Source: an uncultured Myxococcales bacterium
GTDB lineage: Bacteria > Myxococcota_A > UBA9042 > DTJE01
DNA length: 64,000 nt
Assembly: GCA_903936705.1 (NCBI GenBank)
Contig: CAIZWN010000071.1
Span: 51,050-115,049, forward strand
Direction of reading: 5' to 3'
Shown here: piece after piece, positions 2,075-47,718 of the stretch
How the letters are laid out: each line of letters begins with the position of its first letter
How positions within the stretch are numbered: position 1 is the first letter of the stretch
The notes under the pieces: generated by a model
The model's database searches: none
Seen by the model: only the letters and a program-made list of their open reading frames with translations
Told to the model about the DNA's origin: nothing
Program-made: the position numbers and the translations under genes

Positions 2075-2142
2075 GAACTAAAAATTTGCGGCGCGGGGTC
2101 AAGCTAATTGCGGGCCCCGGCCATTGAATGAGGGATTACCAA

Positions 2143-3466: not shown

Positions 3467-6400
3467 CTACGTCAAGGGCAGGAGTTCCTGGGACCCGAAC
3501 AATCGCGTGCTGCCGGCCCATGGACCGGGGCAACGCCAAGCCACTGTGCATTGGCCGCATTCCACAGGCTTGGGTCGGGATTCGGCACGAATTGTCGACG
3601 CTGGACGAAGGCCGTCCAGTTCGGCAACCAGTTGCTGGTTCAGCGGACCTGGGGATTCAGCGGCATCCCACAGATCAGGGTCCAGGTGACACAAAACCAC
3701 GCCTTCGGTTCGCGCCTCAAGGCCAAGGCTGCGCGCAGTTCTCAAGGCGGTTCGCAGGTGGCTGGCTACGCGGCTGATGCGCACTGTCGGGGCCACGTCC
3801 AGCCGCTCCTGGTCCCCAAGCCAGACCGGCCGGGACAACGCAAATTGGACGCGAGACGCGCCTATGTCTGCCAACAGTCGAACCGTGGATTCCAGGTGCT
3901 GGCTGTTTGCGGCAAGTACGGGAATGTTGATCAGGAAAGGCAGATTCTCGGCCTTCAGACTGCGGATTCCAGCGACCGTTTGATCGAAAGCCCCAGGTGC
4001 TTGCGCAATCTTGTCGTGGATGTCGGGTTCGCTTCCGTAAATCGAGACCTCGAAGAAGGAAACTCCCTTGCGGGCCAGCAATCTGGCCAGTCCGGGATAG
4101 GCCAGAACGCGTCCGTTGGTCTGTATTTGGACGTGGTTGTAGCCCAGAACGCGGGCCTCGGTGATCAGGCGCAGTATGTCCTTGCGAATCAACGGTTCGC
4201 CACGCAGGAATACAACCTCGTTGCAGCCGTGGGCGCGTCCTTCGCGCAGTGCATTGATCGCGGCTTCCGTGTCACGTTCCGGCAGATGGGCGATGTCCCT
4301 GATGGTGCAGTGGATACACGCCGAGTTGCACCTGCTGCCCAGGCGCAGCAGCAGGCGGCCAAAACGCTGCTGGTCCGAGGCTGCCAGCACCGGTCCCCGG
4401 GGTGGTGGAGTTTCTTGCGCGGGCCGCCGCCAGCCGGTCCCTTGGACACTTGCGTTGGCGCCTGGACGCTCGACAAGCCATTCGCCGATTGCCAGGCAGT
4501 CGGCCCCGACCTGCAAAAAACTGTTCAACGCGTCCTGAGGCGAAGTTGCGATCGGTTCGTCCGCCGTGTTGAACGACGTGTTCAGGACCAGGGGGATTCC
4601 AGTGCGTCGGTGGAACTCGGAAATCGCCCGGTGGTAAAGGGGTTGCGCGTCGGCATGGACAGACTGAGGGCGCGTAGTCCCGTCGTGGTGAACGATTGCT
4701 GAAACCGCCTCGCGCCGATCCTTGCGCACCCCGGCGACGAACAACATGAATCCGTTGCCATTCGGGTTGTCGAACCAGTCGGCCTCGTGGCCGGCCAGGA
4801 TTGATGGAGCAAAGGGGCGCCAGGCCTCCCGTCCTTTTGCAACGTTCAGTCGGGGATGGAAATCCTGGCGTCCGGGATGGGCCAGAAGGCTTCGCGCCCC
4901 CAGTGCGCGTGGTCCTATCTCCAGACCGGACTGGCACCAGGCCACAACCTGGCCCGCTGCGATCCGTTCGCCTACTTCAACGGCGATGTCGGGCGCGCGT
5001 CGGGCAGGCAGGCCGAACGCATCAAGGGCCGCCTGAATCTCGGTGTCCTCCGGTTCGGGCCCCCAGCAAGCGTGGACCAGCGGCTGGAATGGAGGCTCGG
5101 AAGTAAGTTCCAGGTGTGCTACGAGCGCCGCACCTATTGCCGTGCCCCCATCGTGTGCGGCTGGTTGCACGAACATCGATTGCGGCTGAAAGTGCTGCTG
5201 GATCCGGCTGTTCATCTGGCAGTTCAAAGCCACTCCGCCGGCCAAACCCAGGTTCTGGATCACCTCGCCGCCCCGGCCCTCATCGATCAGCCGAATTATC
5301 GCTTCCTCAAGTGCCAATTGAACGCTTGCAGCCAAGGCCTTGTGGTCCTCGGTCAGCGGGTCGAAGCGTCCTCGGGACAGGTGTCCGAACGTCTTGTTGG
5401 CCTGGTTCTCGTGGATGCGGTGGCGACTGTGGGTTTCGATCGACAGGGCTGATGAAAGGTCGAAGCGTGGATCTCCCATCACGGCCAGGGCCATCGTTGA
5501 CCCCTGTCCATGGGAACCGAAGCCCAGGATTCGGCTGACGGTTTCGTAGACCCCACCGATGGACGAATCGTCCAGGGATAGGACGTCGAAGATGCGTTCC
5601 AGTCGGCCATCCCGGCCTTTGAAGAATGCGGCTGTTTCCCGGTCGCCGCGCCCGTCCACGGTCAGTATATGAGCGTCTGCCCCACCACCGAAATAGTACG
5701 CGCTTGCAGCGTGCGCCTGGTGGTGCGGAACGAATACGAACCGTCCGCTGACCAGGGTTCGAGGTGGTCTGGCTGCGTCCTCAAGGGAGTAGCTGCGGCG
5801 GAAGCGTCCAGGAATGCCGTTGACCCCGATGACGGCTACGTCGTCCAGCGTTATACCCTCGCGTTTCAGCAGCCAGTTCACCGACCGCCAGGCAAACGCC
5901 TCCTCGATCAAAACGGACATGTCATTGCATATCGTGCGGTTCGGGCGACCCGGTATCCTGAAACCGTGGTGCTTGACGCGGGACAAACGCTCCTCTTCGA
6001 CTGCACCGACCAGGCGTCCATCCTTCAGCAGCGCCGCCGAGTTTTCCTGCATCGTGGCAATCGCCAGACCAAGGCTGTAGACGGGGCGGGGGCGAACAGT
6101 ACAACGTTGCCAATCTGGCTGACGCTGCCGGATCTTTGGCGGCGCAAGTTCCGGGGAAGCGGTTCGCAGCAGTCCTGCCGGCCTTGTTCCATCGGGGGCC
6201 ATGACCTGTGCGGCCGAAGCCAGTGCAGGAGCCAAGGCACCGCGCGGGCAGGTTTCCACGCATGCCATGCACGACAGGCAGGATGTTTCATCGATCTTCA
6301 GCATCAGACCGCCGGAATCTGCACCAGTCGTGACCAACGGCGAGGGCGTGGTCGTGGTCGAACGATTCGAACCGTTCACTAGGGCAAGACATCCAGCTGG

Positions 6401-6805
6401 GCAGCTTGGCAGGCACTCGCCGCACGCAGCGCACAATGATGTTTTGTGCAACAAAATCCTGCCGGCGTGATCCCCCGGTGCAGCGCTGGTCTCGATCGCA
6501 GCTCGCCTGGGCGATTCGTGGGCCAGGCCCTCTACTGCAACGCCAAAAGGTCCGCGTCGCCATGCCGAGGCGTCAATCGATCTTTTGAATGGCGGCAATG
6601 GCCAAGGAGTACGCTTGCCAAGCCAATGCGAGGTGACCACAAGCGCGGCCCATGCGTCCTTCGAAGACAAGAACAGGCCTGTCGTTCCTGGAGTTCCGGG
6701 TGTGGGCACCGGGCCCAATATTCGCCGTATGCGCACCCGCCTGGGCGCCGGACGCAGAAGGTCGTACGCCCACAAAGAATGCCGTTCCTCGGGTGGCAGT
6801 GCCAT
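3467..6805 (-). CDS. Three-module fusion: 2x[4Fe-4S] ferredoxin + NodU/CmcH-family carbamoyltransferase + radical SAM domain with C-terminal Cys motif
   Basis: A single uninterrupted 1112-codon ORF. aa 124-186 carry two CxxCxxCxxxCP motifs (CAACGECLPSCP, CLSCMACVETCP). aa ~243-780 look like a carbamoyltransferase (VPHHQAHAASAYYFGG, LAGGVALNC, PAAHDGGTAIGAA, GPRALGARSLL, HDGTTRPQ, LNTSFN). aa ~815-1112 are radical SAM (CNSACIHC = CX3CX2C, RGEPL, QTNG) with terminal CGQCTVAWRCPG. The ATG at 6805 has GGAGG 7 nt upstream. The first ~115 aa are low complexity, so the true start could be internal. Confidence 0.8.
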   Translation of the reverse strand: MALPPEERHSLWAYDLLRPAPRRVRIRRILGPVPTPGTPGTTGLFLSSKDAWAALVVTSHWLGKRTPWPLPPFKRSIDASAWRRGPFGVAVEGLAHESPRRAAIETSAAPGDHAGRILLHKTSLCAACGECLPSCPAGCLALVNGSNRSTTTTPSPLVTTGADSGGLMLKIDETSCLSCMACVETCPRGALAPALASAAQVMAPDGTRPAGLLRTASPELAPPKIRQRQPDWQRCTVRPRPVYSLGLAIATMQENSAALLKDGRLVGAVEEERLSRVKHHGFRIPGRPNRTICNDMSVLIEEAFAWRSVNWLLKREGITLDDVAVIGVNGIPGRFRRSYSLEDAARPPRTLVSGRFVFVPHHQAHAASAYYFGGGADAHILTVDGRGDRETAAFFKGRDGRLERIFDVLSLDDSSIGGVYETVSRILGFGSHGQGSTMALAVMGDPRFDLSSALSIETHSRHRIHENQANKTFGHLSRGRFDPLTEDHKALAASVQLALEEAIIRLIDEGRGGEVIQNLGLAGGVALNCQMNSRIQQHFQPQSMFVQPAAHDGGTAIGAALVAHLELTSEPPFQPLVHACWGPEPEDTEIQAALDAFGLPARRAPDIAVEVGERIAAGQVVAWCQSGLEIGPRALGARSLLAHPGRQDFHPRLNVAKGREAWRPFAPSILAGHEADWFDNPNGNGFMLFVAGVRKDRREAVSAIVHHDGTTRPQSVHADAQPLYHRAISEFHRRTGIPLVLNTSFNTADEPIATSPQDALNSFLQVGADCLAIGEWLVERPGANASVQGTGWRRPAQETPPPRGPVLAASDQQRFGRLLLRLGSRCNSACIHCTIRDIAHLPERDTEAAINALREGRAHGCNEVVFLRGEPLIRKDILRLITEARVLGYNHVQIQTNGRVLAYPGLARLLARKGVSFFEVSIYGSEPDIHDKIAQAPGAFDQTVAGIRSLKAENLPFLINIPVLAANSQHLESTVRLLADIGASRVQFALSRPVWLGDQERLDVAPTVRISRVASHLRTALRTARSLGLEARTEGVVLCHLDPDLWDAAESPGPLNQQLVAELDGLRPASTIRAESRPKPVECGQCTVAWRCPGPWAGSTRLFGSQELLPLT

Positions 6806-6906
6806 TCGCCCCTCCGCGTGGTGGGTATTCTAGCTTGGAATCAGTCCCGGTGCGCGCTGACCTGATCCAGGGCGCCGTGGTGTGATACGCTTCCCGCGGC
6901 GAGGTT

Positions 6907-7998
6907 GTGCCGATGAGGTCCGGGAACGACAACGGAAGACCTGGGGTGCCAACCCAGGAGGCGGACGACGTGGGAGATCGCGTCCACGTCTGCGTCGGCG
7001 CCTGGTGCAACAACAACTGTATTTTCTGCATGGAGATTGATCGCGAGGACAGGGCAGCGCGCGTGGCGTCCCAGACTGCTGACGACGTCAAACGAATGAT
7101 CGATGCAAATCGTGGCGTTCGCGAAATCCTGTTCACCAGCGGCGAGCCCACCATGAACAAGGAGTTGCCCAGATACATCGGTTGGGCCAGGGAGGCCGGC
7201 TACGAAGTCATCGGGGTCATCAGTAACGGCAGGATGTTCAGCTACGAACCCTACGTTCGGCGCCTTCTGGCGGCTGGCATGAACAACGTGATCGTCAGTA
7301 TTCATGGACACGATGCAAGGTTGCACGACGGGCTGACGCGCACCAAGGGCAGCTTTGACCAGACACTTGCCGGCCTGCGCTGCCTTTCCAGGTTGAGGGC
7401 CGAACGCGGGTTTTCAATCCAGACAAGCACTGTAATAAATCGCCGGAACATTCTGTTTCTTGGTGATATTTGCAGGCTTATGCAGACGCTTGATGCCGAT
7501 CGACATGTCTTCAACGTCATGATGCCGGATGGTCGAGGCCTGCAGCTTATCAGCCAGTTGATGCCGCGATATCTGGAAGTGCGCGATGCGTTTCTGGCGC
7601 TGGTTCCATTGCTGGCCCCTGAATTCCTTGCCAGGATTGCAGTGCTGGACGTGCCGTACTGCGCGACCGAGGGGCTCCCTGACAGCATGCGCGGGTACGT
7701 CGAGCGCTATTTCCACTACGAGCCGGCCGGCAGTTTCGAGGAAAGAGTTGCTGCGATGGGTCTGGAACCGCCCGTGGAAGGGGAGGGCGACCTGTTTCAA
7801 ACCAGTGCCATCGGTGGCGATTTGACCGCCTTCTCGCGGGTGACCCGTACCTTCCAGGAGGGTTACGTCAAGGTCAAGCGTGCCGAGTGCGCCGAGTGCC
7901 GGTTTGACGTCCTTTGTCGCGGGGCCTGGCGCGCGTATGTTGAACACTTCGGCTGGGACGAAATGGTTCCGGTGAAAACTGCCCCGTCTGGAAGTTGA
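6907..7998 (+). CDS. radical SAM protein (MoaA/PqqE-like core, C-terminal CxxCx5CxG motif)
   Basis: CNNNCIFC (CX3CX2C), SGEPTMNKE, ISNGRMF, VSIHGHDARLHDGLTRTKGSFDQTLAGL, C-terminal CAECRFDVLCRGAW. Divergent from the 3467-6805 gene across 101 nt. Start is GTG 6907 or ATG 6913. Confidence 0.85.
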   Translation: MPMRSGNDNGRPGVPTQEADDVGDRVHVCVGAWCNNNCIFCMEIDREDRAARVASQTADDVKRMIDANRGVREILFTSGEPTMNKELPRYIGWAREAGYEVIGVISNGRMFSYEPYVRRLLAAGMNNVIVSIHGHDARLHDGLTRTKGSFDQTLAGLRCLSRLRAERGFSIQTSTVINRRNILFLGDICRLMQTLDADRHVFNVMMPDGRGLQLISQLMPRYLEVRDAFLALVPLLAPEFLARIAVLDVPYCATEGLPDSMRGYVERYFHYEPAGSFEERVAAMGLEPPVEGEGDLFQTSAIGGDLTAFSRVTRTFQEGYVKVKRAECAECRFDVLCRGAWRAYVEHFGWDEMVPVKTAPSGS

Positions 7999-31923: not shown

Positions 31924-32130
31924 TCCTGCAATTGCTCCCGTAGTGGCCCCCTGCTTGACTGGCAAACAGCTCTACACCTTAACATTGCATATTCAGGCAT
32001 GCCAAAATGGCGGCAGATTTTCGTTGCGGACGCGAGGGTGGATCGCTTTCGACAAAAGATATGGGGTGTGCTTTCTTGATTGGTGGGTGAGCGGATGCTA
32101 CCCTTGGTTCGGTTCAATCAGCGGGCCTGC

Positions 32131-33084
32131 ATGGAGTTGACCTGTCTTAATTGTACTGGAGCCTTCGAGGTTGATGACGCTGCGGCCGATGGGGTCGCGG
32201 GGACGCTGGACTGCCCTCTTTGCGGAAGGGAGCAGCGTTTCGTTGCAAAGGGAGATCATCATATTGCGGAGTTCGAGCCATCCGAGGCCGCCGCTCGTCG
32301 CGAGCCGGTTTCAGACGGTTTTGGTGCAGCATTCCGCAAGCCCATGCAGGCTTTCGGGGGCCGAAGGGGAGCACGGCCCGGTGGTGCACCGGTATCTGGA
32401 TCCGCGGCACCTTCAGGCGAATCGCCGCGGATTTCGTCCACCGAGATGGCTTCCGCCAACCAGGTCTTTCCCCCGGCAGATAACTTCCGATTGAGGCCGG
32501 TTAACCTCCAGGCGGAATCGCCGATCCCGGACGAGCGGCTTGTCGAGTTAAAGCCTAACCCTGAAATACTTGATCCTGTCTCCGGATCCTGGGCTGTGAA
32601 GTCCCCAACCGGCCTGGTACTGGAGTTCCCCGAATCCGCCCTTCTGGTCAACTGGTCGGCAGTGGTCGAGAACCCGGCGCCTTACCAGGTTTCGCGTGGG
32701 GGGGAAACCTGGATGTCCCTGGAGGAATTCCTCCGTGAGACCAAGCGCGGCGTGCGGGCTACCCAGGCCTTCAGACGGACGTTGGACGAGCGGGGTTCGG
32801 GCCTGATACCCGTTCCCTTGGAGTCCGTTGCTGGCAGTTCATTCGCGCAGCCGCAGGATCCTGTTTCAATTGGCTTGCAGGGGGAACAACCTGGAGCCCC
32901 GGGGACTGTGGTTGCGACGCAAGCTTCCCAGCGAAATGCGGTTTCCACGACTGCCCAATTCACATTCAAGATTGCCACCAACAAGAAAACGGGCTTTCCG
33001 CGTTGGGCTGTTGCCCTGATCGTAGGCGGCGTGCTGGTGCTGCTGGGCAGTGGGGCAGCAGTGGCATTCCTGTTTCTGAAATGA
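32131..33084 (+). CDS. membrane-anchored protein with N-terminal MJ0042-type zinc ribbon
   Basis: MELTCLNCTGAFEV...LDCPLCGREQRF (CxxC...CxxC). A single C-terminal TM segment (WAVALIVGGVLVLLGSGAAVAFLFL). Confidence 0.6.
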   Translation: MELTCLNCTGAFEVDDAAADGVAGTLDCPLCGREQRFVAKGDHHIAEFEPSEAAARREPVSDGFGAAFRKPMQAFGGRRGARPGGAPVSGSAAPSGESPRISSTEMASANQVFPPADNFRLRPVNLQAESPIPDERLVELKPNPEILDPVSGSWAVKSPTGLVLEFPESALLVNWSAVVENPAPYQVSRGGETWMSLEEFLRETKRGVRATQAFRRTLDERGSGLIPVPLESVAGSSFAQPQDPVSIGLQGEQPGAPGTVVATQASQRNAVSTTAQFTFKIATNKKTGFPRWAVALIVGGVLVLLGSGAAVAFLFLK

Positions 33085-33099
33085 TTGCCGGCGGTAATT

Positions 33100-34743
33100 A
33101 TGGGAAAGGTCATATACATACGTACCAGTGACGGTGTGCTGCTGCGTTTCGAGGAAGCGGCGAAAGTACAGGCCTGGATTTCCAACGGTCGGCTGGGGCC
33201 GGCCGATTTGTACCTTGGTGGAGATCAGGGGTGGCATCCACTGTCCGAAATGCACGAGCCCGAGGGGGCGATGTTGCAAATGGCGCCGCCGCCTGCGTCT
33301 GGCAGGTCCGGACCGGTGGCCAAGTCGCTGGGTGCCGAAGAGCCTTCGGTCAGCCCATCCAGGAAGAAGAAACCCGAAGGCCCTGTCCGACGCGAGGCAA
33401 AGTCGCACAAGGCAGCTTCGCGACAGGTCGAGACTTCGATTGAAGCAATCCAGGCGCCTAGGGCGGAAGTGGCCGACCCGGTCGGTGTTGAGGCGATTCC
33501 GGCGGCATTGGCGAACGATGTGGTTCCGGTTGCCGAGGTCAAGCCAATTCCGGTTGCTCAGCCTGCCGGCGCCAGCAGCGTGGTAAAGACCGAACCGTCA
33601 CTTCGTCCGTTAGTGGTCGAGGCCAAGACGACTTCTCCGGAGCCGGTTGCGACTGTTCAGATGGTTGCGCAGGTTGATGTGCAGCGCGACGTGCTTGATG
33701 CGCCATCCGCCTTTTCCGTCGGGACCGAACTGGTCGGATCTGCACTGGATTCGGATTTGTGGGCGGCTGACCCCATTGGCGGGGCAGCCAGACGAAAGGC
33801 AACGCTGAAGCGCGCGATACCGTTCGCTATGCTGGTGTCCCTTGGCCTTGGCGGGCTTGTGGCCCTTGTCGTCTTGTCAAAGGAGGCCGAGATACCCGAG
33901 ATGCCCCCGGTTGCTGCGGTTTCTCCCATTCGGGAGGAGGGTGGCGCAGAGCCGGTTGCGGCACCCGTTGTCAAGGCGGCCGAGCCCGTCGAGTCGGAGC
34001 CGGCAGTTGCTCCGGTTGCCGCCAAGGTGCCGTCCCCCGATAAAGTACGGGCGATCGAATACGAACCATTTGCAGATCGAAAGAGCCCAGTGGCAGCACC
34101 TGTAGTGACGGCCCCACCGGTCAAGCCCGTCGTGCCTGACGTTGTCAGCCTTCGTGGCGGCGAAGCTGCACAGCCGGCCGTGCCAGCCGAATCCGCGGCT
34201 TCAGCCAGTCCGGTTCCGGCACGGCAGACCCCCGTACTTCGCACGGCAAGCGCAGATTCAAAGGAGGCTCGCGCCGCCTTGGTGCCACCGGCCGCTGTCC
34301 GCACGGTGCCGCCGGTTGCTGTTCGTGCTGTGCCGCCGGACTCGCGAGCGACCCCTGCTGCCAAGGAGCCTGTCGCCACCGAAGAACCGGATACCTTCGA
34401 CGGCCACATGGCTGCCGGTAATCGCGAGGTAAACCGCAATCCGGCGCTTGCGCAGGAACATTTCCAGTTGGCGGCACAGGCGCGGCCTGGACGTGTAGAG
34501 CCTGTGACTCGTCTGGGTGATTGCGCTGTCAGGATGGGCGACGTCGAGACCGCCGAGAAGCAATATCGGGCCGCCCTCAAGATAGGCGCGTCATTCTCGC
34601 CTGCGCTGCTGGGAATGGCGCGGGTTCAGAAGGCCCTGGGCAGCGCTTCCGACGCGCGGTACTACTACACCAGGTATCTCGATGTGAATCCGAAGGGCAG
34701 CCAGGCCGAAGAGGCCCAGTCCTACCTTGAACGCAACCCCTAG
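33100..34743 (+). CDS. GYF_2-like domain / TM / Pro-Ala-rich linker / C-terminal TPR protein
   Basis: N-terminus IYIRTSDGVLLRFEEAAKVQAWISNGRLGPADLYLGGDQGWHPLSEM (GYF_2/DUF4339-like). TM segment FAMLVSLGLGGLVALVVL. C-terminal TPR-like repeats (AEKQYRAALKIGASFSPALLGMARV..., ARYYYTRYLDVNP). Confidence 0.6.
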   Translation: MGKVIYIRTSDGVLLRFEEAAKVQAWISNGRLGPADLYLGGDQGWHPLSEMHEPEGAMLQMAPPPASGRSGPVAKSLGAEEPSVSPSRKKKPEGPVRREAKSHKAASRQVETSIEAIQAPRAEVADPVGVEAIPAALANDVVPVAEVKPIPVAQPAGASSVVKTEPSLRPLVVEAKTTSPEPVATVQMVAQVDVQRDVLDAPSAFSVGTELVGSALDSDLWAADPIGGAARRKATLKRAIPFAMLVSLGLGGLVALVVLSKEAEIPEMPPVAAVSPIREEGGAEPVAAPVVKAAEPVESEPAVAPVAAKVPSPDKVRAIEYEPFADRKSPVAAPVVTAPPVKPVVPDVVSLRGGEAAQPAVPAESAASASPVPARQTPVLRTASADSKEARAALVPPAAVRTVPPVAVRAVPPDSRATPAAKEPVATEEPDTFDGHMAAGNREVNRNPALAQEHFQLAAQARPGRVEPVTRLGDCAVRMGDVETAEKQYRAALKIGASFSPALLGMARVQKALGSASDARYYYTRYLDVNPKGSQAEEAQSYLERNP

Positions 34744-34749
34744 TCCAGG

Positions 34750-37062
34750 GTGCCGCTTGCCGATGCCGGGTCGCGTCGCTACCATACCGTCGTGAGTCAT
34801 CCCATTCGACGCGCACTGTTCCTGAACCCGACGCTGCACCTCCCTGCCGATTTCGTGGACTACCCCTGGTTTGCGCACCACGGCCTTTTGTTCGCCGCGG
34901 CTCGTGTTGCCAGGGCCGGATGGCAGGTCAAGCTGACCGACACCTTTGCGCTGCCGACCTCCGATCGTGTCGCGGATGGTTCTGGTTGGCGGTTGGGCGC
35001 TCCCGAGTCGGACCTGCTGGATGCAATTCCTGAAGGCCCTTTCGGTTTGGTTGTCATTGGATCGTCGTCCTTTTTAAGGCCATATCTGCCTGATCCACGC
35101 ACCGCCGCTTTCGTGGCTGCGGTCGGCAGGCGCTTTCCCGAGGCTGCCATCGTTCTTGCAGACGCCGATGTTGGAGGCATGCACGCGGTGGACTACGTGG
35201 GGACTTCGGTCATTGAAAAAATGGGTGCCCTGGACGTCGTGCTACGTCATTCTGGTGAAGATTTCTTTGGCGACCCGGATCGGCTGGTAGCATTGAAGGG
35301 TTCCCGTTCCGAGGTGCTTGATCCGCCCGGTCAGTGGGATGCACTTCCTCCATTTCCGTTGCTGGATGACCTGGACGCCGGTATGTACGGGGCTTTCCTT
35401 TGGCGCTGTTTTCGCGATGGCACGTGGTCGAACCCGTTCGGGATCGACGCATTCACCCGCCCGTTCATGACCTCCAGCGGATGTCCGCATCGCTGTGTCT
35501 TCTGCAGCAGCAACGCGGGCTGGCGGCAGACCGGTTGCAAGGTCCAGCGCGTGGTGCCACTTCATGTCCTGAAGGATTGGGCTTTCCTGGCTTCCCGCGT
35601 ACACGGCGCGCGCAAGCTGTTCATCCTTGACGAGATGGCCAACCTGCGCCACGACTTTGTAGAAATGTTGGAAATATTCGCGCAGCTCGACTTGCGCTAT
35701 GAGTTTCCGAACGGCCTGCGTGCTGACCGTTTGACCTCCGAAGCCATCGCGATGATGAAGGAGCGCATTTCACTGCTGTCGGTGTCAGCCGAGAGCGCCA
35801 GTGCCGCTGATCTGGCCGGCCCAATAGGCAAGCGCCAGGATCCGGCCCAGGTCGAACGCGTTGTTGCGGAAGCTGCCGGAATCGGTCTGCCAACGCTGGT
35901 CCATTTCGTGGTCGGGTTTCCCTGGGAGACGCCGAAATCGGTGCTGGCGACCCTTGATTTCGCCTGGCGCCTGTTCGACACCTATGGTGCGGCGCCCTCG
36001 GTCCAGTTTGCCACTCCACTGCGCGGCACGCCTCTCTTCGACATTTGCGTGCAGTCGGGCTTGATGTCTCCCGACGCCGGTACCTCGGCCGACGGCACGC
36101 TGTTTCAGCATCGTCCGGCGTTTCGGCCGCCGGCGATTCCCGAAGGCTGGTTGCAGACCGCTCACGCCATGTTTCGTCGCAAGGTTGAATCGGCATCGTC
36201 ACGCAAGGTCATCATCAACCTGACCTACGAGTGCATCAATGCGTGCGAGTTCTGCGCCGTTTCGAACCGCGAGAAACGTGACATCCCGTGGCCCCGGCTT
36301 CAGCAGTTCATCCGAGAATACAGGGCGCAAGGTCTGGATCAGATTGACCTTGACGGAGGCGAGCCAACTCTTCATCCCAACCTTGTCGACTCGATCAGAC
36401 TGGCCCGCGAGATAGGCTATAGGGAGATCAACGTCACCACCAACGGAAGGCGCCTGGCAGATTCAGTCTGGGCAAGGGAATTCCTATCCAGCGGGGTCAC
36501 CAGCGTTCTTGTTTCACTGCACGGTGAATCGTCAGGGATCCATGATGCGATAGTAGGTGTCCCTGGGGCCTTCGACGAGACCCTGGCTGGCATCAGAAAC
36601 CTGGTGACACTGCGAAAACATGGTCAGGACCTTGGGGTCAACATCACGGTATGCCGTCGCAACGTGGAACATCTTGATGCGCTTTTTGAATTGCTGGACC
36701 GCGAGCGCATAGACAAGGTGAACCTGCAATTGGTCACGCCGTTCGGATCGGCACGGCAGGATGTCGTTCCACCGGAGAGCCAGGCGACCGCAGCGGTGTG
36801 CCGGGTACTGGACCGCTTCGGAAAGTCGATGCGTTTGCACGTTGTAAACGCGCAGTTCTGCCTGTTTCCGGGTTACGAATCCTATCTTGGCGGAGACGTC
36901 GGCAAGGTGGGTCGTACGATGATCTTCGTGTCCGAAGAGAAGGTGAACCTGTTTGAATACCTGGCGGCCCGCCGCGTCCGTCGCCCGCCGTGCCTCGTCT
37001 GTCCCTGGGCTCCGGTGTGCGACGGCTTTTTCAAATTCGAGGAGGATGCCTCCGATGTCTGA
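34750..37062 (+). CDS. double radical SAM protein: B12-binding-like/class-B-type rSAM half fused to a MoaA/PqqE-like rSAM half with a C-terminal Cys motif
   Basis: Two CX3CX2C motifs: CPHRCVFC (aa 245-252, nt ~35482) and CINACEFC (aa 495-502, nt ~36232). The second half has GGEPTLHPN, TTNGRRL, VSLHGESSGIHDAIVGVPGAFDETLAGIRNL and terminal CLVCPWAPVCDG. Start is GTG 34750 (7 nt after the upstream stop) or GTG 34792. Confidence 0.8.
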   Translation: MPLADAGSRRYHTVVSHPIRRALFLNPTLHLPADFVDYPWFAHHGLLFAAARVARAGWQVKLTDTFALPTSDRVADGSGWRLGAPESDLLDAIPEGPFGLVVIGSSSFLRPYLPDPRTAAFVAAVGRRFPEAAIVLADADVGGMHAVDYVGTSVIEKMGALDVVLRHSGEDFFGDPDRLVALKGSRSEVLDPPGQWDALPPFPLLDDLDAGMYGAFLWRCFRDGTWSNPFGIDAFTRPFMTSSGCPHRCVFCSSNAGWRQTGCKVQRVVPLHVLKDWAFLASRVHGARKLFILDEMANLRHDFVEMLEIFAQLDLRYEFPNGLRADRLTSEAIAMMKERISLLSVSAESASAADLAGPIGKRQDPAQVERVVAEAAGIGLPTLVHFVVGFPWETPKSVLATLDFAWRLFDTYGAAPSVQFATPLRGTPLFDICVQSGLMSPDAGTSADGTLFQHRPAFRPPAIPEGWLQTAHAMFRRKVESASSRKVIINLTYECINACEFCAVSNREKRDIPWPRLQQFIREYRAQGLDQIDLDGGEPTLHPNLVDSIRLAREIGYREINVTTNGRRLADSVWAREFLSSGVTSVLVSLHGESSGIHDAIVGVPGAFDETLAGIRNLVTLRKHGQDLGVNITVCRRNVEHLDALFELLDRERIDKVNLQLVTPFGSARQDVVPPESQATAAVCRVLDRFGKSMRLHVVNAQFCLFPGYESYLGGDVGKVGRTMIFVSEEKVNLFEYLAARRVRRPPCLVCPWAPVCDGFFKFEEDASDV

Positions 37063-37993
37063 TCGTGCAGCCTTCGGTGTTGTTGATGACATGTCGGACG
37101 TCCTGGTGGACGTAATCCTCGGCTACGAGTGCAATGTCCAATGCGACTACTGCTCGATCACGCCGGGGATGCGACTCAGCAACATGTCGACCAAGGTGGT
37201 GATCGAGGAACTGGCCCGCGCCCGGGCGCTGGGAATGTCGCGAGTGGCGTTTGGCGGCGGCGAGCCTACCATCCGCCGGGACCTGTTCCCGCTGGTCAGA
37301 TACGCCCGGGATCGCGGCTTTGCGTCGGTCAAGGTGTCGTCGAACGGACTGATGTACTCGTACGAGGACTACGTGCGCCAGGCGATCGAGGCCGGGATCA
37401 CCGATTTTCATGTTTCGGTGATGGCGCATACGCCGGAACTCTACAGGAAGATTCTGGGGCATAAGGAAGGCCTCGAACTGGTCACTCGTGGGGTCGGCAA
37501 CCTTGTTGCGGCGGGACATGTGCCGGTCCTGGATCTGATCGTGAAGGACGACACCTACATGCACCTGTCGGATATCATCGCGTACTGGGCGGCCCTGGGC
37601 GCGCGAATGTTCCCGCTGTGGCTGGTGTCCTTGTCGGACCGGAACCGCGACAACGTGGACTCTCTTCCCCCGGTCTCGCTGATGCGGGCGTCCCTGGTTG
37701 CGGCCTTCGAGCGCGGGCGCGAACTGGGCGTCACCGTCTATTCAAGGCATATTCCTCGATGCATGTTGCGGGGGTACGAGGCTTTCTGTCGGGACCTCCG
37801 TGATGATCGCGTGCTGGTTGTCACTCCAGGATCCAGGTTCTTCCTTTGGGAGTCGGCCATCAGTCCGAACACTTACAGCCCCAGGTGCGAGTCGTGTCTG
37901 TACGTTCGACGGGAGTGCCAGGGGATCCGTCGGGACTATTTGGAACGCCACGGGGATGCCGAGGTCGTGCCCTACGAGGGTCGGGATGGATGA
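37055..37993 (+). CDS. radical SAM protein (paralog of 6907..7998)
   Basis: CNVQCDYC, GGGEPTIRRD, SSNGLMY, VSVMAH..., C-terminal CESCLYVRRECQG. ATG at 37055 overlaps the upstream stop (ATGTCTGA), with GAGGAGGA as RBS. Confidence 0.85.
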   Translation: MSDRAAFGVVDDMSDVLVDVILGYECNVQCDYCSITPGMRLSNMSTKVVIEELARARALGMSRVAFGGGEPTIRRDLFPLVRYARDRGFASVKVSSNGLMYSYEDYVRQAIEAGITDFHVSVMAHTPELYRKILGHKEGLELVTRGVGNLVAAGHVPVLDLIVKDDTYMHLSDIIAYWAALGARMFPLWLVSLSDRNRDNVDSLPPVSLMRASLVAAFERGRELGVTVYSRHIPRCMLRGYEAFCRDLRDDRVLVVTPGSRFFLWESAISPNTYSPRCESCLYVRRECQGIRRDYLERHGDAEVVPYEGRDG

Positions 37994-38918
37994 TCGAGAC
38001 GCGCTGCCTGGCAGCAATTCGTTCGACTACATACCGGTTCGGGAACTTCAAGGCTTCATGCTGGACGTTTCATGCTGCACCGCGCGTGAACTGGGTCTTT
38101 CCCGCGCAGCTACCAGCCGCGCCGTTATCGTGGCTGTGGATGCGAGGTTCGTGCTTTGCAGGACGGACACTGGGGACTTCTCGGATGCCCAGGTCAGGCT
38201 CGTTGTTCATCAGCGGGGCCAGCTGTATCTGGATGTCTCGGGAAAGCCGGCGATAACGGATTTCGGGCGCGACGTCCGTCAGGTCGTGGTTTCGCCGACG
38301 TGCCGGTCCTGCCCGGACCTGGCAACATGCTGTGCCTGCTATGTTCCGACGTTCGCCTGGTTCTTCGAGGATGACGAGAAGGTCCTGGAGGACTGGCTGC
38401 GGGCCAGGCGAGGCCGCCTGCTTGACGTGGGAATGGGTTTTGCCCCATACCGCGAGGCAATGTCCGACGCGATTCTAGGCGGTCGGCTGGAGTACCACGG
38501 CCTTGACCCCGATCCTGCGGTCATTGCGGCGGCCGGGGCCTCGGGACTTCCGATGAGCCTGCACGAGGTTGCCATCGAGGCGTTTGTGGGCTGCGAAGGA
38601 TTCTTCGATGCGGCAGTGGCATTGCGTAGCTTGAACCATTTTCAAGATGTTGATTGCGCGCTTGACGTCATTGCCAGGTGTCTTCGCCCCGGGGCCGAGG
38701 TTCTGATGATCGAATCGTTGCCATTGCCGCTGGTTCGTTCGCGCAGGCATGCTTCGCTATGCCATGTCGAGGCGGCCGGAGGACACGCTCATCTCAGGAA
38801 CTGGGACTCGTCGCAGGTCGTTGCGCGCCTGCCGGGTCGTCCATTCTCGGTAGTCCAGGAACGGCCGGTCGGTCGCGACACGTGCGACCAGTGGATTCTT
38901 CGATTGCGCCGGGATTGA
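37986..38918 (+). CDS. class I SAM-dependent methyltransferase with Cys-rich N-terminal domain
   Basis: LLDVGMGFAPY (motif I-like), LRPGAEVLMIE (post-II/III-like). N-terminal CRSCPDLATCCACY. ATG at 37986 overlaps the upstream stop (ATGGATGA). Confidence 0.65.
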   Translation: MDDRDALPGSNSFDYIPVRELQGFMLDVSCCTARELGLSRAATSRAVIVAVDARFVLCRTDTGDFSDAQVRLVVHQRGQLYLDVSGKPAITDFGRDVRQVVVSPTCRSCPDLATCCACYVPTFAWFFEDDEKVLEDWLRARRGRLLDVGMGFAPYREAMSDAILGGRLEYHGLDPDPAVIAAAGASGLPMSLHEVAIEAFVGCEGFFDAAVALRSLNHFQDVDCALDVIARCLRPGAEVLMIESLPLPLVRSRRHASLCHVEAAGGHAHLRNWDSSQVVARLPGRPFSVVQERPVGRDTCDQWILRLRRD

Positions 38919-47649: not shown

Positions 47650-47718
47650 GGGATATTCTCCTCCTTTTGCTTTCCCTGGCAATGCAACCTTCATGCGGGA
47701 CCAATCTCGCAATCCGGC

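What the first reader, a model, noticed from the sequence alone, without database searches (positions are those of the whole stretch)
3467..6805. Single-polypeptide fusion of dicluster ferredoxin, NodU/CmcH-type carbamoyltransferase and a radical SAM domain
One uninterrupted 1112-codon frame joins three modules. (i) Two CxxCxxCxxxCP motifs at nt ~6448-6220. (ii) A complete carbamoyltransferase-like region at nt ~6079-4466, including HHQAHAASAYYFGG, AAHDGGTAIGAA and HDGTTRPQ. (iii) A CX3CX2C radical SAM core with a terminal CxxCx5CxG motif at nt ~4363-3467. Carbamoyltransferases of this family normally act alone as ATP/carbamoyl-phosphate tailoring enzymes. I do not know of a characterised enzyme that couples one covalently to a radical SAM domain and a built-in electron-transfer module. 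The architecture implies a coupled radical plus carbamoylation reaction on an unknown substrate. No transporter, precursor peptide or sugar-pathway genes lie nearby.
Basis: partly seen in the sequence, partly recalled or inferred. Interest (0 to 1): 0.8.

Follow-up and report, generated by a model that had tools for sequence, protein, structure and literature searches.

The report
Ferredoxin–carbamoyltransferase–radical SAM fusion enzyme
A real, conserved but uncharacterised 1112-residue enzyme joins an iron-sulfur electron-carrier module, an intact carbamoyl-transferring enzyme and a radical SAM domain, sits next to a related radical SAM gene, and belongs to a family linked in other genomes to His-Xaa-Ser repeat peptide maturation systems.

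Summary
Window 3467-6805(-) is one uninterrupted 1112-codon frame. It encodes a 2x[4Fe-4S] ferredoxin module, a complete NodU/CmcH (TobZ-like) carbamoyltransferase with all four metal ligands conserved, and a radical SAM domain with CX3CX2C plus a 4-Cys auxiliary site.

It is not an assembly artefact. The DNA is identical in independent assemblies, and 84 of the 120 listed 90%-identity clusters carry the carbamoyltransferase-radical SAM fusion. All named sources are uncultured Myxococcota or Elusimicrobiota. I found no characterised member and no paper on it.

New points:
- The divergent gene 6907-7998 is a paralogous, HxsC4-like radical SAM partner. A radical SAM domain of this kind is fused to, or within 3 kb of, the carbamoyltransferase in 37 of 43 loci.
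- In relatives the fused radical SAM is a separate, overlapping downstream gene (fusion/fission).
- 21 of 84 fused homologues have lost CX3CX2C.
- In nine related loci HxsA4 (His-Gly-Ser)n repeat genes, in most with HxsB (and HxsD where checked), lie near this carbamoyltransferase.

Best reading (0.45): a maturase pair that carbamoylates and radically modifies a peptide or protein encoded elsewhere. The window itself has no HxsA, HxsB or HxsD, so the substrate is unknown. It is a new variant of known kinds.

The parts
3467..6805 (-). Whole gene: Fer4 - carbamoyltransferase - radical SAM fusion, 1112 aa
   Evidence: ORF listing and translation. Pfam domains. Full-length homologues at 40-58% identity. 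Identical DNA in L071 and L072.
6446..6805 (-). N-terminal region, aa 1-120. No family match. Conserved within the subclade (LWAYDLL..RRV motif).
   Evidence: Alignments. pLDDT below 50. Flat codon-position GC. GGAGG 5 nt before ATG 6805.
6233..6445 (-). 2x[4Fe-4S] ferredoxin module, aa 121-191, with a roughly 21-aa Ser/Thr-rich insertion between the two CxxCxxCxxxCP motifs
   Evidence: Fer4_7 and Fer4_9 above cut-off. Seven of the eight cluster cysteines are invariant in A1 and C128 is nearly so. The insertion is absent from orthologues.
5006..6088 (-). Kae1-like half of the carbamoyltransferase (Carbam_trans_N), about aa 240-600. Metal ligands H361, H365, D384, D552.
   Evidence: Pfam. Alignment to TobZ 3VEN, whose ligands H114/H118/D137/D338 (residue numbers from my own recall of the TobZ literature, offset 6 from the chain numbering) correspond to these residues. 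They are invariant in A1. Foldseek match to TobZ, E 2e-32.
4466..4969 (-). YrdC-like half of the carbamoyltransferase (Carbam_trans_C), aa 613-780. This is the carbamoyl-adenylate-forming site.
   Evidence: Pfam E 3.6e-57, full profile 2-170/170. Invariant GPRALGxRS, KxRexWRPFAPS, HxDxTxRPQ and TSFN motifs.
3470..4372 (-). Radical SAM domain, aa 812-1112, with a twitch-like C-terminal auxiliary cluster site. CX3CX2C lies at 4307-4330. C1039 lies at 3689-3691. CX2CX5C lies at 3530-3559.
   Evidence: Pfam Radical_SAM. Best NCBIfam hit is HxsC4, 90 bits, below cut-off. pLDDT about 90. Foldseek matches BlsE and SkfB. The four auxiliary cysteines are invariant.
6806..6906 (.). 101-bp divergent intergenic region between the fusion gene and its partner. 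Presumably a shared regulatory region.
   Evidence: Sequence. No sigma-70-like consensus and no Rfam match.
6907..7998 (+). Partner gene: stand-alone HxsC4-like radical SAM protein (363 aa; 361 aa if the ATG at 6913 is the start) with its own CX3CX2C and terminal CX2CX5C
   Evidence: NF038332 HxsC4, E 6e-102, 341 bits over the full length, cut-off 500. 26% identical to the fused radical SAM domain from end to end. 45% identical to Sandaracinus HxsC4. Orthologues lie next to a carbamoyltransferase gene in L001, L084/L085 and L005.
32080..38918 (+). Possibly linked second operon: Zn-ribbon/TM protein, TPR protein, 770-aa radical SAM protein with an HxsC4-like domain, a radical SAM gene of about 303 aa (37070-37993), and a methyltransferase
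   Evidence: Pfam and NCBIfam. tblastn. The same operon occurs in L082. In L001 and L084/L085 the orthologous Zn-ribbon/TPR/methyltransferase genes directly adjoin the fusion gene.

Best explanation
The gene encodes a genuine multidomain iron-sulfur enzyme that works with the divergently encoded HxsC4-like radical SAM protein (6907-7998) as a two-gene maturase module. The target is a peptide or protein encoded elsewhere in the genome.

Proposed mechanism:
- The YrdC-like subdomain makes carbamoyl-adenylate from ATP and carbamoyl phosphate.
- The Kae1-like subdomain, with its His/His/Asp/Asp metal site, transfers the carbamoyl group to a side-chain O or N nucleophile such as Ser or Lys.
- The fused radical SAM domain and/or the partner cleave SAM at their CX3CX2C clusters and abstract a hydrogen atom from the same substrate. 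Their 4-Cys auxiliary clusters handle the electron.
- The N-terminal dicluster ferredoxin module feeds electrons to the radical SAM clusters.

Shown:
- domain identities
- intact catalytic and cluster-binding motifs
- conservation of the architecture
- the partnership with HxsC4-like radical SAM proteins
- fusion and fission of the radical SAM component
- the association of this carbamoyltransferase clade with HxsA4 repeat-peptide systems in other genomes

Inferred:
- that both activities act on one substrate
- that the substrate is a peptide or protein
- the electron-relay role of the ferredoxin module
- any chemistry
For: Domains and motifs are intact.

Partnership with HxsC4-like radical SAM proteins:
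- 37 of 43 carbamoyltransferase loci with at least 3 kb of flank on both sides have an HxsC4-like radical SAM domain fused or within 3 kb. In 16 of them it is both fused and separate, as in the window.
- The pair stays together in four lineages with different surroundings: the window, L001, L084/L085 and L005.

Fusion and fission:
- Where the carbamoyltransferase lacks the domain, a fused-type radical SAM gene of about 300 aa follows immediately on the same strand in L023, L032, L033 and L044, overlapping the carbamoyltransferase gene by 1-11 nt. In L061 a 717-aa one follows 4 nt downstream.
- L068 carries a further N-terminal radical SAM domain.

Link to peptide systems:
- The partner matches HxsC4 over its full length at 341 bits and is 45% identical to a true HxsC4 (631 bits) that follows an HxsA4 repeat-peptide gene in Sandaracinus.
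- HxsA4 (NF038313, above cut-off) lies directly upstream of carbamoyltransferase-only family members in L054 and L057.
- (His-Gly-Ser)n repeat ORFs lie beside the Fer4-CT-rSAM gene in six Elusimicrobiota loci, together with HxsB. I confirmed the repeat ORF as HxsA4 above cut-off in two of the six, HxsB in one, and HxsD in one (L017).

Precedents from papers:
- HxsB and HxsC are required for maturation of the HxsA protein (PMC13128918).
- A NodU-like carbamoyltransferase fused to a peptidase carbamoylates Lys in a RiPP (PMC13174530).
Against: - The window's 64 kb hold no HxsA4-like repeat gene, no HxsB and no HxsD. There is no small ORF beside the module.
- No Myxococcota locus with the full fusion has an HxsA4 gene within 10 kb.
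- The partner (341 bits) and the fused domain (90 bits) are below the HxsC4 cut-off of 500.
- The closest solved relatives of the carbamoyltransferase (TobZ, NovN, GdmN, VtdB) and of the radical SAM domain (BlsE) act on small molecules.
- 21 of 84 fused homologues lack CX3CX2C, so the fused domain need not be catalytic across the family.
- Contexts other than the radical SAM partner vary widely.
- The interdomain geometry is not modelled: pTM is 0.56 and the ferredoxin region has pLDDT below 50.
Confidence: 0.45

Rival explanations
1. It is a tailoring enzyme for a small molecule, glycan or lipid. The radical SAM domain would carry out, for example, a decarboxylation, dehydration or dehydrogenation on a sugar, nucleoside or lipid head group. 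The carbamoyltransferase would then O-carbamoylate the product, as TobZ, NovN and GdmN do.
For: - The nearest solved structures are TobZ, GdmN, NovN and VtdB for the carbamoyltransferase, and BlsE (cytosylglucuronate decarboxylase) for the radical SAM domain.
- Some relatives sit among B12-radical SAM, LPG_synthase_TM, asparagine synthase, UDP-GlcNAc 2-epimerase, glycosyltransferase, GDPD/PAP2 and GMC oxidoreductase genes (L003, L004, L086).
Against: - No biosynthetic cluster is conserved around the gene, and the window pair sits between a thiolase gene and the ATP synthase operon.
- The BlsE similarity is weak (E 1e-9 to 5e-11) and no better than that to the peptide maturase SkfB.
- The only near-universal neighbour belongs to a radical SAM group whose named members, HxsC and HxsC4, go with repeat-peptide genes.
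Confidence: 0.25
2. It is part of a protein-maturation system for a sulfatase-family enzyme or other specific protein. The partner would act like an anaerobic sulfatase maturase on an active-site Ser or Cys, and the carbamoyltransferase fusion would add a second modification.
For: - Orthologues of the partner (55-63% identity) lie directly beside a 600-780-aa sulfatase gene in L005, L089 and L090. In L005 it is also divergent from a carbamoyltransferase gene.
- FGE-sulfatase-domain genes lie near the carbamoyltransferase in L006, L012, L026, L086 and L067.
- The window has a sulfatase gene at 41137-43341.
Against: - The window's sulfatase is 33 kb away and only about 30% identical to those neighbours.
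- Among the 65 loci from the genome scan, a sulfatase neighbours the carbamoyltransferase only in L005.
- The partner's best 25 NCBIfam matches do not include the anaerobic sulfatase maturase model.
- Sulfatase and FGE genes are, from general knowledge, abundant in these phyla, so chance or inherited synteny is plausible.
Confidence: 0.08
3. It is a metallocofactor-assembly enzyme. The carbamoyltransferase would act like HypF, supplying a carbamoyl-derived (cyanide-type) ligand. The radical SAM and ferredoxin modules would build or insert an iron-sulfur-based cofactor on a nitrogenase-like scaffold or a His-rich carrier.
For: - NifE-like and NifK/BchB-like gene pairs and B12-radical SAM genes flank the fusion in several Elusimicrobiota loci: L015, L016, L062, L058 and L061.
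- There are weak HypF_C_2 hits.
- The auxiliary cluster site is kept in all 84 fused homologues even where the SAM cluster site is lost.
- (His-Gly-Ser)n peptides could bind metals (my inference).
Against: - The HypF-specific domains (acylphosphatase, zinc fingers) are absent, and HypF_C_2 scores 17.6 bits against a cut-off of 27.
- There are no hydrogenase, nitrogenase-like or HypE-like genes in the stretches of the window I annotated; 47.7-64 kb was not annotated.
- The NifEN-like neighbours are limited to one phylum.
Confidence: 0.07
4. It is not a functional single enzyme. Either the long frame is over-called, with a separate or untranslated N-terminal part, or it is a decaying gene.
For: - Gene callers give 861-1112 aa on identical DNA.
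- The first 240 codons lack codon-position GC bias.
- That region is modelled with pLDDT below 50.
Against: - The frame is open and conserved at the amino-acid level through both ferredoxin motifs in the divergent orthologues L001, L002, L084 and L086.
- There is a Shine-Dalgarno-like GGAGG before ATG 6805.
- All catalytic motifs are intact.
- 84 of the 120 listed clusters share the carbamoyltransferase-radical SAM fusion.
Confidence: 0.03

Closest known systems
NodU/CmcH-type O-carbamoyltransferases with solved structures (TobZ 3VEN, NovN 9S2T, GdmN 7VYJ, VtdB 7XB6)
   Same: Same two-subdomain fold, Kae1-like plus YrdC-like. Sequence E-values run from 1e-72 to 1e-57 and Foldseek E-values from 2e-32 to 1e-25. 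The metal ligands and the adenylate-site motifs are conserved.
   Different: Those enzymes stand alone at 570-700 aa and act on aminoglycoside, aminocoumarin or ansamycin small molecules. Here the enzyme carries an N-terminal ferredoxin module and a C-terminal radical SAM domain, is only about 27-32% identical to them, and forms its own Myxococcota/Elusimicrobiota clade.
His-Xaa-Ser (HXS) systems: HxsA/B/C/D, and the type-4 variant HxsA4/HxsC4 of NCBIfam
   Same: - The partner and the fused radical SAM domain both have HxsC4 as best model.
- The partner is 45% identical to a true HxsC4.
- Relatives of the carbamoyltransferase sit next to HxsA4, HxsB and HxsD genes.
- HxsB and HxsC mature the HxsA protein in the characterised antiphage system (PMC13128918).
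   Different: - The window has no HxsA, HxsB or HxsD.
- Both radical SAM sequences score below the HxsC4 (500) and HxsC (268) cut-offs.
- The described HXS system contains no carbamoyltransferase; the paper has no occurrence of 'carbamoyl'.
- The Sandaracinus HxsA4/HxsC4 locus has no carbamoyltransferase either.
[quoted passage not shown]
   Same: It is a NodU-like carbamoyltransferase covalently fused to a second catalytic domain. It acts on a ribosomal peptide (Lys to homocitrulline) using ATP and carbamoyl phosphate.
   Different: The fusion partner is a protease, not a radical SAM domain or ferredoxin module. StdF sits in a Streptomyces cluster with a precursor gene alongside. I did not test homology to the window protein beyond the shared family.
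Twitch/SPASM-type radical SAM enzymes (BlsE 7VOB, SkfB 6EFN, PqqE, MoaA, SuiB, viperin)
   Same: A partial TIM-barrel radical SAM core with a C-terminal cysteine-rich auxiliary cluster region. These are the best structural matches, with Foldseek E from 5e-11 to 1e-7.
   Different: Identity is only 15-21%. The Pfam SPASM model is not matched. The C-terminal site has 4 Cys (C1039, C1083, C1086, C1092). No substrate-binding features can be transferred.
HypF carbamoyltransferase of [NiFe]-hydrogenase maturation
   Same: The same Kae1-like/YrdC-like catalytic pair. From general knowledge, HypF carbamoylates a protein thiol on HypE, which shows that this fold can act on proteins.
   Different: There are no acylphosphatase or zinc-finger domains. 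HypF_C_2 scores 17.6 bits, below the cut-off of 27. I found no hydrogenase maturation genes in the stretches of the window I annotated.

Membership tests
NodU/CmcH carbamoyltransferase family (Pfam PF02543 + PF16861) | Both Carbam_trans_N and Carbam_trans_C profiles matched above gathering score | tested here: met
   113.1 bits (cut-off 24) and 193.1 bits (cut-off 27).
NodU/CmcH carbamoyltransferase family (Pfam PF02543 + PF16861) | Kae1-like metal site: TobZ His114, His118, Asp137, Asp338 | tested here: met
   The equivalents H361, H365, D384 and D552 align to the TobZ residues (the TobZ residue numbers are recalled from the literature, with an offset of 6 in the PDB chain). They are invariant in 14 homologues.
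NodU/CmcH carbamoyltransferase family (Pfam PF02543 + PF16861) | ATP- and carbamoyl-phosphate-dependent carbamoyl transfer activity | not testable with these tools
   Needs an enzyme assay.
NodU equivalog (NCBIfam NF041651) | Score above the curated cut-off of 1000 bits | tested here: not met
   114.4 bits over a partial stretch.
Radical SAM superfamily (PF04055) | Profile match above gathering score and a CX3CX2C cluster motif | tested here: met
   71.9 bits (cut-off 29.5). C826-x3-C830-x2-C833 is present. 63 of 84 fused homologues keep the motif.
Radical SAM superfamily (PF04055) | Reductive cleavage of SAM to the 5'-deoxyadenosyl radical | not testable with these tools
   Needs anaerobic biochemistry.
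SPASM/twitch subgroup of radical SAM enzymes | C-terminal cysteine-rich auxiliary [4Fe-4S] domain (Pfam SPASM PF13186, or a twitch half-domain) | tested here: inconclusive
   There is no SPASM Pfam hit at E below 0.1. However, four invariant cysteines are present (C1039, C1083, C1086, C1092), and the best structural matches are the twitch enzymes BlsE and SkfB.
HxsC4 radical SAM protein (NCBIfam NF038332) | Score above the curated cut-off of 500 bits | tested here: not met
   The fused domain scores 90.4 bits and the partner 6907-7998 scores 341.2 bits over the full length. The positive control, Sandaracinus HxsC4, scores 631 bits.
His-Xaa-Ser system (HxsA/B/C/D or HxsA4/HxsC4) | A His-Xaa-Ser repeat protein gene together with HxsB and HxsD genes in the locus | tested here: not met
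   A six-frame repeat scan, tblastn with HxsB, HxsD and HxsA4 queries, and TRF find none in the 64-kb window. They are present in related loci: L003, L013, L017, L019, L021, L022, L046, L054 and L057.
2x[4Fe-4S] bacterial-type ferredoxin domain | Two CxxCxxCxxxCP motifs and a dicluster Fer4 profile match above cut-off | tested here: met
   Fer4_7 scores 31.5 and Fer4_9 scores 31.0 (cut-off 27). Both motifs are present and conserved. The spacer is lengthened by an insertion specific to the window.
HypF | Acylphosphatase and zinc-finger domains in addition to the YrdC and Kae1 domains | tested here: not met
   Neither domain is detected. HypF_C_2 scores 17.6 bits, below the cut-off of 27.
Known antiphage defence systems (PADLOC-DB 2.0) | A significant match to a defence-system protein model | tested here: not met
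   There are only weak, generic radical SAM hits to pVip models (27-44 bits). The HXS system was published later than this library.

The most novel reading that the evidence does not exclude
The fusion and its partner represent an undescribed carbamoyl-dependent branch of the His-Xaa-Ser/HxsC4 radical SAM maturation systems. An ATP-driven carbamoyltransferase would install O- or N-carbamoyl groups on Ser/His-rich repeat proteins, or on another protein target, together with radical SAM chemistry. A built-in ferredoxin would supply the electrons. That would be a new enzymatic protein modification, possibly maturing a defence-type effector like HxsA.
Probability: 0.2. Interest if true: 0.8.

Novelty: new variant of a known kind. 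Interest (0 to 1): 0.6.

Why it matters
Characterised NodU/CmcH carbamoyltransferases are mostly stand-alone tailoring enzymes for small molecules. Radical SAM enzymes normally receive electrons from separate carriers.

A conserved enzyme that wires a ferredoxin module, a carbamoyltransferase and a radical SAM domain together, and that always travels with a second paralogous radical SAM protein, points to a two-step chemistry that has not been described.

The link found here to HxsA4 (His-Gly-Ser)n repeat genes gives a concrete, testable substrate candidate for the family. It also connects the family to the HXS systems, which were shown only in 2026 to be antiphage systems and whose modification chemistry is still unresolved.

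If the peptide hypothesis fails, the family is still a clean target for discovering a new radical SAM/carbamoylation reaction in Myxococcota and Elusimicrobiota. I found it only in metagenome-assembled genomes, apart from a ferredoxin-carbamoyltransferase relative in cultured Enhygromyxa salina.

Tried and rejected
- **Frameshift or assembly artefact: rejected.** The DNA is identical in other assemblies and the architecture recurs.
- **Over-called N-terminus: rejected as the main reading.** The frame is open and conserved in orthologues, although gene callers disagree on the start.
- **Precursor peptide in cis: none.** There is no small ORF beside the pair; 8038 to about 8455(-) is atpC. A search for small conserved ORFs across all loci found the HxsA4 genes only elsewhere.
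- **Riboswitch or other RNA element: none**. The promoter/terminator scan was uninformative.
- **Known defence system: no.** Only generic pVip-level hits.
- **Phage origin: no.** Viral contigs hold only distant carbamoyltransferase-only relatives at 27-31% identity.
- **NodU, HypF, HxsC and HxsC4 membership: each fails its cut-off**.
- **Metagenome scan for close relatives: nothing useful**.
- **Full-length AlphaFold2 model: no reliable interdomain geometry.** pTM is 0.56 and the N-terminus and ferredoxin region are below pLDDT 50. I make no claim about an electron path or a shared active-site channel.
- **Literature: four searches for the architecture found no description**.
- **Neighbours such as RecA and SSB (L033, L044), a Ser/Thr kinase and a PPDK_N protein: judged to be inherited synteny rather than function**.

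Full report
**1. The observation**

Window 3467-6805 on the minus strand is a single open frame of 1112 codons.
- two CxxCxxCxxxCP motifs (C125-P136, C176-P187)
- HHQAHAASAYYFGG, AAHDGGTAIGAA and HDGTTRPQ
- CNSACIHC (C826/C830/C833)
- the terminal CGQCTVAWRCPG

Pfam matches, all above gathering score:

| Domain | Residues (best stretch) | Score |
|---|---|---|
| Dicluster Fer4 | 125-190 | Fer4_7 31.5, Fer4_9 31.0 bits (cut-off 27) |
| Carbam_trans_N | 356-561 (second stretch not listed) | 113 bits |
| Carbam_trans_C | 613-780 | 193 bits, full-length profile |
| Radical_SAM | 823-978 | 71.9 bits |

No NCBIfam equivalog passes its cut-off. NodU scores 114 bits against 1000. The best radical SAM hit is HxsC4, at 90 bits against 500.

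**2. Is it one real gene?**

The 4.8 kb around the gene is 100% identical in two other assemblies from different samples, L071 and L072. An assembly-specific frameshift is therefore excluded.

A search of 5.8 billion proteins returned 163 relatives. Of the 120 listed, 84 carry the carbamoyltransferase followed by the same radical SAM domain. Most of them also carry ferredoxin motifs. Identity to the query is 37-62%.

One caveat is new. On the identical DNA, gene callers report 861, 945, 970 or 1112 aa. The reason is compositional:
- The first 240 codons have GC of 0.62/0.64/0.62 at the three codon positions.
- The rest of the gene has 0.66-0.72/0.46-0.51/0.69-0.71.

The long form is nevertheless the best-supported one:
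- ATG 6805 has GGAGG 5 nt upstream.
- In four divergent orthologues (L001, L002, L084, L086) the frame stays open upstream of the called starts.
- In those orthologues it encodes the same N-terminal motif (LWAYDLL..RRV..) and both ferredoxin motifs.

The window's ferredoxin module has a Ser/Thr-rich insertion of about 21 residues between its two cluster motifs that the orthologues lack.

**3. Are the modules intact?**

*Carbamoyltransferase.* This region matches TobZ (3VEN, E 2.7e-72), NovN, GdmN and VtdB by sequence and by fold (Foldseek E 2e-32 to 1e-25). The TobZ metal ligands His114/His118/Asp137/Asp338 (residue numbers from my own recall of the TobZ literature) correspond to H361/H365/D384/D552. 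These residues are invariant in an alignment of 14 family members, as are the YrdC-like motifs.

*Radical SAM domain.* It has the canonical CX3CX2C and four invariant C-terminal cysteines: C1039, C1083, C1086 and C1092. It is modelled with pLDDT of about 90. It resembles BlsE, SkfB, GDGT-MAS, DesII, SuiB, viperin, PqqE and MoaA only distantly: 12-21% identity, Foldseek E 5e-11 to 2e-7, sequence E 9e-10 at best. The Pfam SPASM model is not matched, so I describe it as twitch-like.

*N-terminus.* Residues 1-237, including the ferredoxin module, were not modelled with confidence, and pTM is 0.56. Nothing can be said about how the domains pack.

**4. Distribution**

A scan of one genome per GTDB species gave 65 loci. 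Nearly all come from Myxococcota (Polyangiales, Nannocystaceae/Enhygromyxa, Bradymonadia and unclassified lineages, some labelled 'Deltaproteobacteria') or from Elusimicrobiota; a few records carry only broader proteobacterial labels. All but one are metagenome-assembled genomes. The exception is Enhygromyxa salina SWB007, which has the ferredoxin-carbamoyltransferase without the fused radical SAM.

Architectures vary:
- Fer4-CT-rSAM
- Fer4-CT or CT with long unknown N-terminal extensions
- CT alone
- one rSAM-X-Fer4-CT-rSAM (L068)

Several genomes carry up to four or five paralogues. Viral contigs hold only distant carbamoyltransferase-only relatives.

The window itself is probably from an uncultured member of Myxococcota, judging by the organisms that hold its closest relatives.

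**5. The partner**

The divergent gene 6907-7998(+) is a radical SAM protein. It matches NCBIfam HxsC4 over its whole length (E 6e-102, 341 bits, cut-off 500). It is a 26%-identical, end-to-end paralogue of the fused radical SAM domain, including the terminal CX2CX5C.

I called ORFs in all loci and clustered the proteins. The HxsC4-like radical SAM cluster is by far the most frequent neighbour. Among 43 carbamoyltransferase genes with at least 3 kb of flank on both sides:

| Radical SAM domain of this kind | Loci |
|---|---|
| Fused and also separate, as in the window | 16 |
| Fused only | 9 |
| Separate only | 12 |
| None within 3 kb | 6 |

Where the carbamoyltransferase lacks the fused domain, a gene of about 300 aa follows immediately on the same strand in L023, L032, L033 and L044. 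It is much closer to the fused domain (218-246 bits) than to the partner (83-100 bits), and the two genes overlap by 1-11 nt. In L061 a 717-aa gene of the same type follows 4 nt downstream. In L053 the equivalent gene lies 51 nt away on the opposite strand.

A search of 1.84 billion cluster representatives with the fused domain likewise returns a mix of stand-alone proteins of about 300 aa and fused proteins of more than 1000 aa, at similar identity of about 40-45%. This fusion and fission is good evidence that the carbamoyltransferase and this radical SAM act together.

The true orthologues of the window's partner (55-69% identity) lie beside a carbamoyltransferase gene in the window, L001, L084/L085 and L005. 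The surroundings differ in each case: thiolase and ATP synthase; PALP/amidohydrolase with a methyltransferase/TPR/FtsK block; and a sulfatase. That argues for selection on the pairing itself.

In 21 of 84 fused homologues, mostly one Elusimicrobiota clade, the CX3CX2C cysteines are lost (for example RDDCDPAHAP). All 84 keep the terminal CX2CX5C. In those the fused domain is probably a non-catalytic Fe-S domain and the stand-alone radical SAM would supply the radical chemistry. The window's copy is canonical.

**6. The link to His-Xaa-Ser systems**

*Sandaracinus.* A true HxsC4 (631 bits; 45% identical to the window's partner) directly follows an 86-aa gene ending in QHCSHGSHGS...HGSW. That gene passes the HxsA4 model (102 bits, cut-off 55). 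HxsD and an HxsB-like radical SAM lie upstream.

*Six-frame scan of all fetched loci.* (His-Gly-Ser)n ORFs turned up in nine carbamoyltransferase loci.
- In Myxococcota L054 and L057, HxsA4 (122 and 117 bits) ends 36-160 nt upstream of a carbamoyltransferase-only family member. In L057 an HxsC4-like radical SAM follows.
- Six Elusimicrobiota loci (L003, L013, L017, L019, L021, L022) share one arrangement, with small differences between loci: an HxsC4-like radical SAM, then the Fer4-CT-rSAM gene, a Cys-rich protein, an HTH protein, HxsD, HxsB, a (His-Gly-Ser)n repeat ORF and further radical SAM genes.
- For those six, the model scores I ran are HxsD 63.7 bits in L017 (cut-off 50), HxsB 510 bits in L013 (cut-off 370), and HxsA4 107 bits in L003 and 139 bits in L022.
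- L046 also has a borderline HxsA4 (55 bits).

*What is known.* The canonical HxsABCD system was reported in 2026 as an antiphage system. HxsB and HxsC (with HxsD) are required to mature the HxsA repeat protein, and the chemistry is unresolved (PMC13128918). That paper does not mention a carbamoyltransferase. A NodU-like carbamoyltransferase fused to a peptidase carbamoylates Lys in a RiPP (PMC13174530). Fusions of RiPP recognition elements with PF02543 have also been noted (PMC12710340).

**7. What the window lacks**

The 64 kb contain no His-Xaa-Ser repeat ORF, no HxsB and no HxsD. There is no small ORF beside the pair, no Rfam element and no PADLOC system.

The pair lies between a thiolase gene (2128-3318) and atpC/atpD/atpG/atpA. 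Its third-position GC (0.68-0.71) is lower than that of these flanks (0.82-0.88).

None of the Myxococcota loci with the full fusion has an HxsA4 gene within 10 kb. The substrate of the window's enzyme is therefore not identified. The peptide hypothesis rests on paralogy and on the family's context elsewhere.

**8. A second radical SAM operon**

Window 32080-38918(+) encodes, in order:
- a Zn-ribbon/TM protein
- a TPR protein
- a 770-aa protein with an HxsC4/HxsC-like radical SAM domain
- a radical SAM gene of about 303 aa (37070-37993; my first gene picking missed it)
- a methyltransferase

The same operon lies next to FtsK in another Myxococcota genome, L082. In L083 the 770-aa and 310-aa radical SAM genes sit inside a large HxsD/HxsB/HxsA4 cluster.

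In L001 and L084/L085 the orthologous Zn-ribbon, TPR and methyltransferase genes are contiguous with the fusion gene and its partner, and the two radical SAM genes are missing from that position. This hints at a functional link or an in-place replacement, but it rests on two lineages.

**9. Other contexts**

- Partner orthologues lie beside a sulfatase gene in L005, L089 and L090.
- FGE-sulfatase-domain genes lie near the carbamoyltransferase in five loci.
- NifE-like and NifK/BchB-like pairs and B12-radical SAM genes flank it in several Elusimicrobiota loci.
- LPG_synthase_TM, B12-radical SAM and SPASM genes flank it in L004 and L086.

None of these is general across the family. They feed the rival explanations.

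**10. Verdict**

The finding is real and the architecture is uncharacterised. The most likely function is a two-gene maturase module (confidence 0.45):
- ATP- and carbamoyl-phosphate-dependent carbamoylation, combined with radical SAM chemistry
- electrons fed through the built-in ferredoxin module
- a peptide or protein substrate encoded elsewhere
- an evolutionary relationship to the HxsC4/HxsA4 branch of the His-Xaa-Ser systems

A small-molecule, glycan or lipid tailoring role is the main rival (0.25).

It is a new variant of known kinds rather than a new kind of system. Interest is moderate to high (0.6), because it offers a defined route to a possibly new protein modification and to the unresolved chemistry of HXS-type systems.

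Noticed in passing
window 6086-6805 (codons 1-240 of the fusion gene): Automated gene callers on identical DNA give four different starts (861, 945, 970 and 1112 aa). This stretch has no codon-position GC bias, yet it is conserved at the protein level in orthologues. Database entries for this family are therefore often N-terminally truncated and lose the ferredoxin module.
   Followed up: yes
window about 6300-6370 (aa 146-167): A Ser/Thr-rich insertion of about 21 residues (NGSNRSTTTTPSPLVTTGADS) lies between the two cluster motifs of the ferredoxin module. It is absent from the four orthologues aligned with it.
   Followed up: partly
window 32080-38918 (+): A conserved Myxococcota operon next to FtsK: a Zn-ribbon/TM protein, a TPR protein, a 770-aa radical SAM protein, a radical SAM protein of about 303 aa (37070-37993) and a methyltransferase. 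All its radical SAM domains are HxsC4-like. In two related lineages the non-radical-SAM genes of this operon directly adjoin the fusion gene.
   Followed up: partly
L054 9813-9956, L057 9656-9835; L003, L013, L017, L019, L021, L022, L046: (His-Gly-Ser)n repeat genes lie directly upstream of, or near, carbamoyltransferases of this clade. Those I scanned pass the HxsA4 model NF038313. I did not find this association of a carbamoyltransferase with His-Xaa-Ser systems described anywhere.
   Followed up: yes
homologues P0014-P0084 (21 of 84), e.g. P0077 = L003 8001-11441: The fused radical SAM domain has lost its CX3CX2C cysteines, mostly in one Elusimicrobiota clade, but keeps the terminal CX2CX5C site. 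It is probably a pseudo-radical-SAM Fe-S domain.
   Followed up: partly
L005 150-2895; L089 382-3667; L090 7674-11074; window 41137-43341: Orthologues of the partner radical SAM lie directly beside a large sulfatase-family gene in three lineages, with RlmN next to it in two of them. The window has a paralogous sulfatase 33 kb from the partner. FGE-sulfatase-domain genes occur near the carbamoyltransferase in five loci.
   Followed up: partly
L015, L016, L058, L061, L062 (also L020, L036, L047, L064): Nitrogenase-like NifE-type and NifK/BchB-type gene pairs, or single genes of either type, lie next to the carbamoyltransferase gene, often with B12-binding radical SAM genes. Most are Elusimicrobiota loci; L061 is Bradymonadales. 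Their function is unknown.
   Followed up: no
window 44305-47712 (-): A 1135-aa protein with nine DUF7151 repeats and collagen-like Gly-X-Y tracts, built from DNA repeats of about 300 bp and of 9 and 18 bp.
   Followed up: no
window 3467-7998 versus flanks: Third-position GC of the fusion gene (0.68) and its partner (0.71) is clearly lower than that of the flanking thiolase and ATP synthase genes (0.82-0.88). It is similar to that of the second radical SAM operon (0.64-0.68). The cause could be horizontal acquisition or low expression; I did not resolve it.
   Followed up: partly
L003 15270-17681: In one Elusimicrobiota genome the HxsA4 repeat region is the N-terminus of an 803-aa protein that also has a B12-binding domain. 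The repeat peptide is thus fused to a putative maturase.
   Followed up: no
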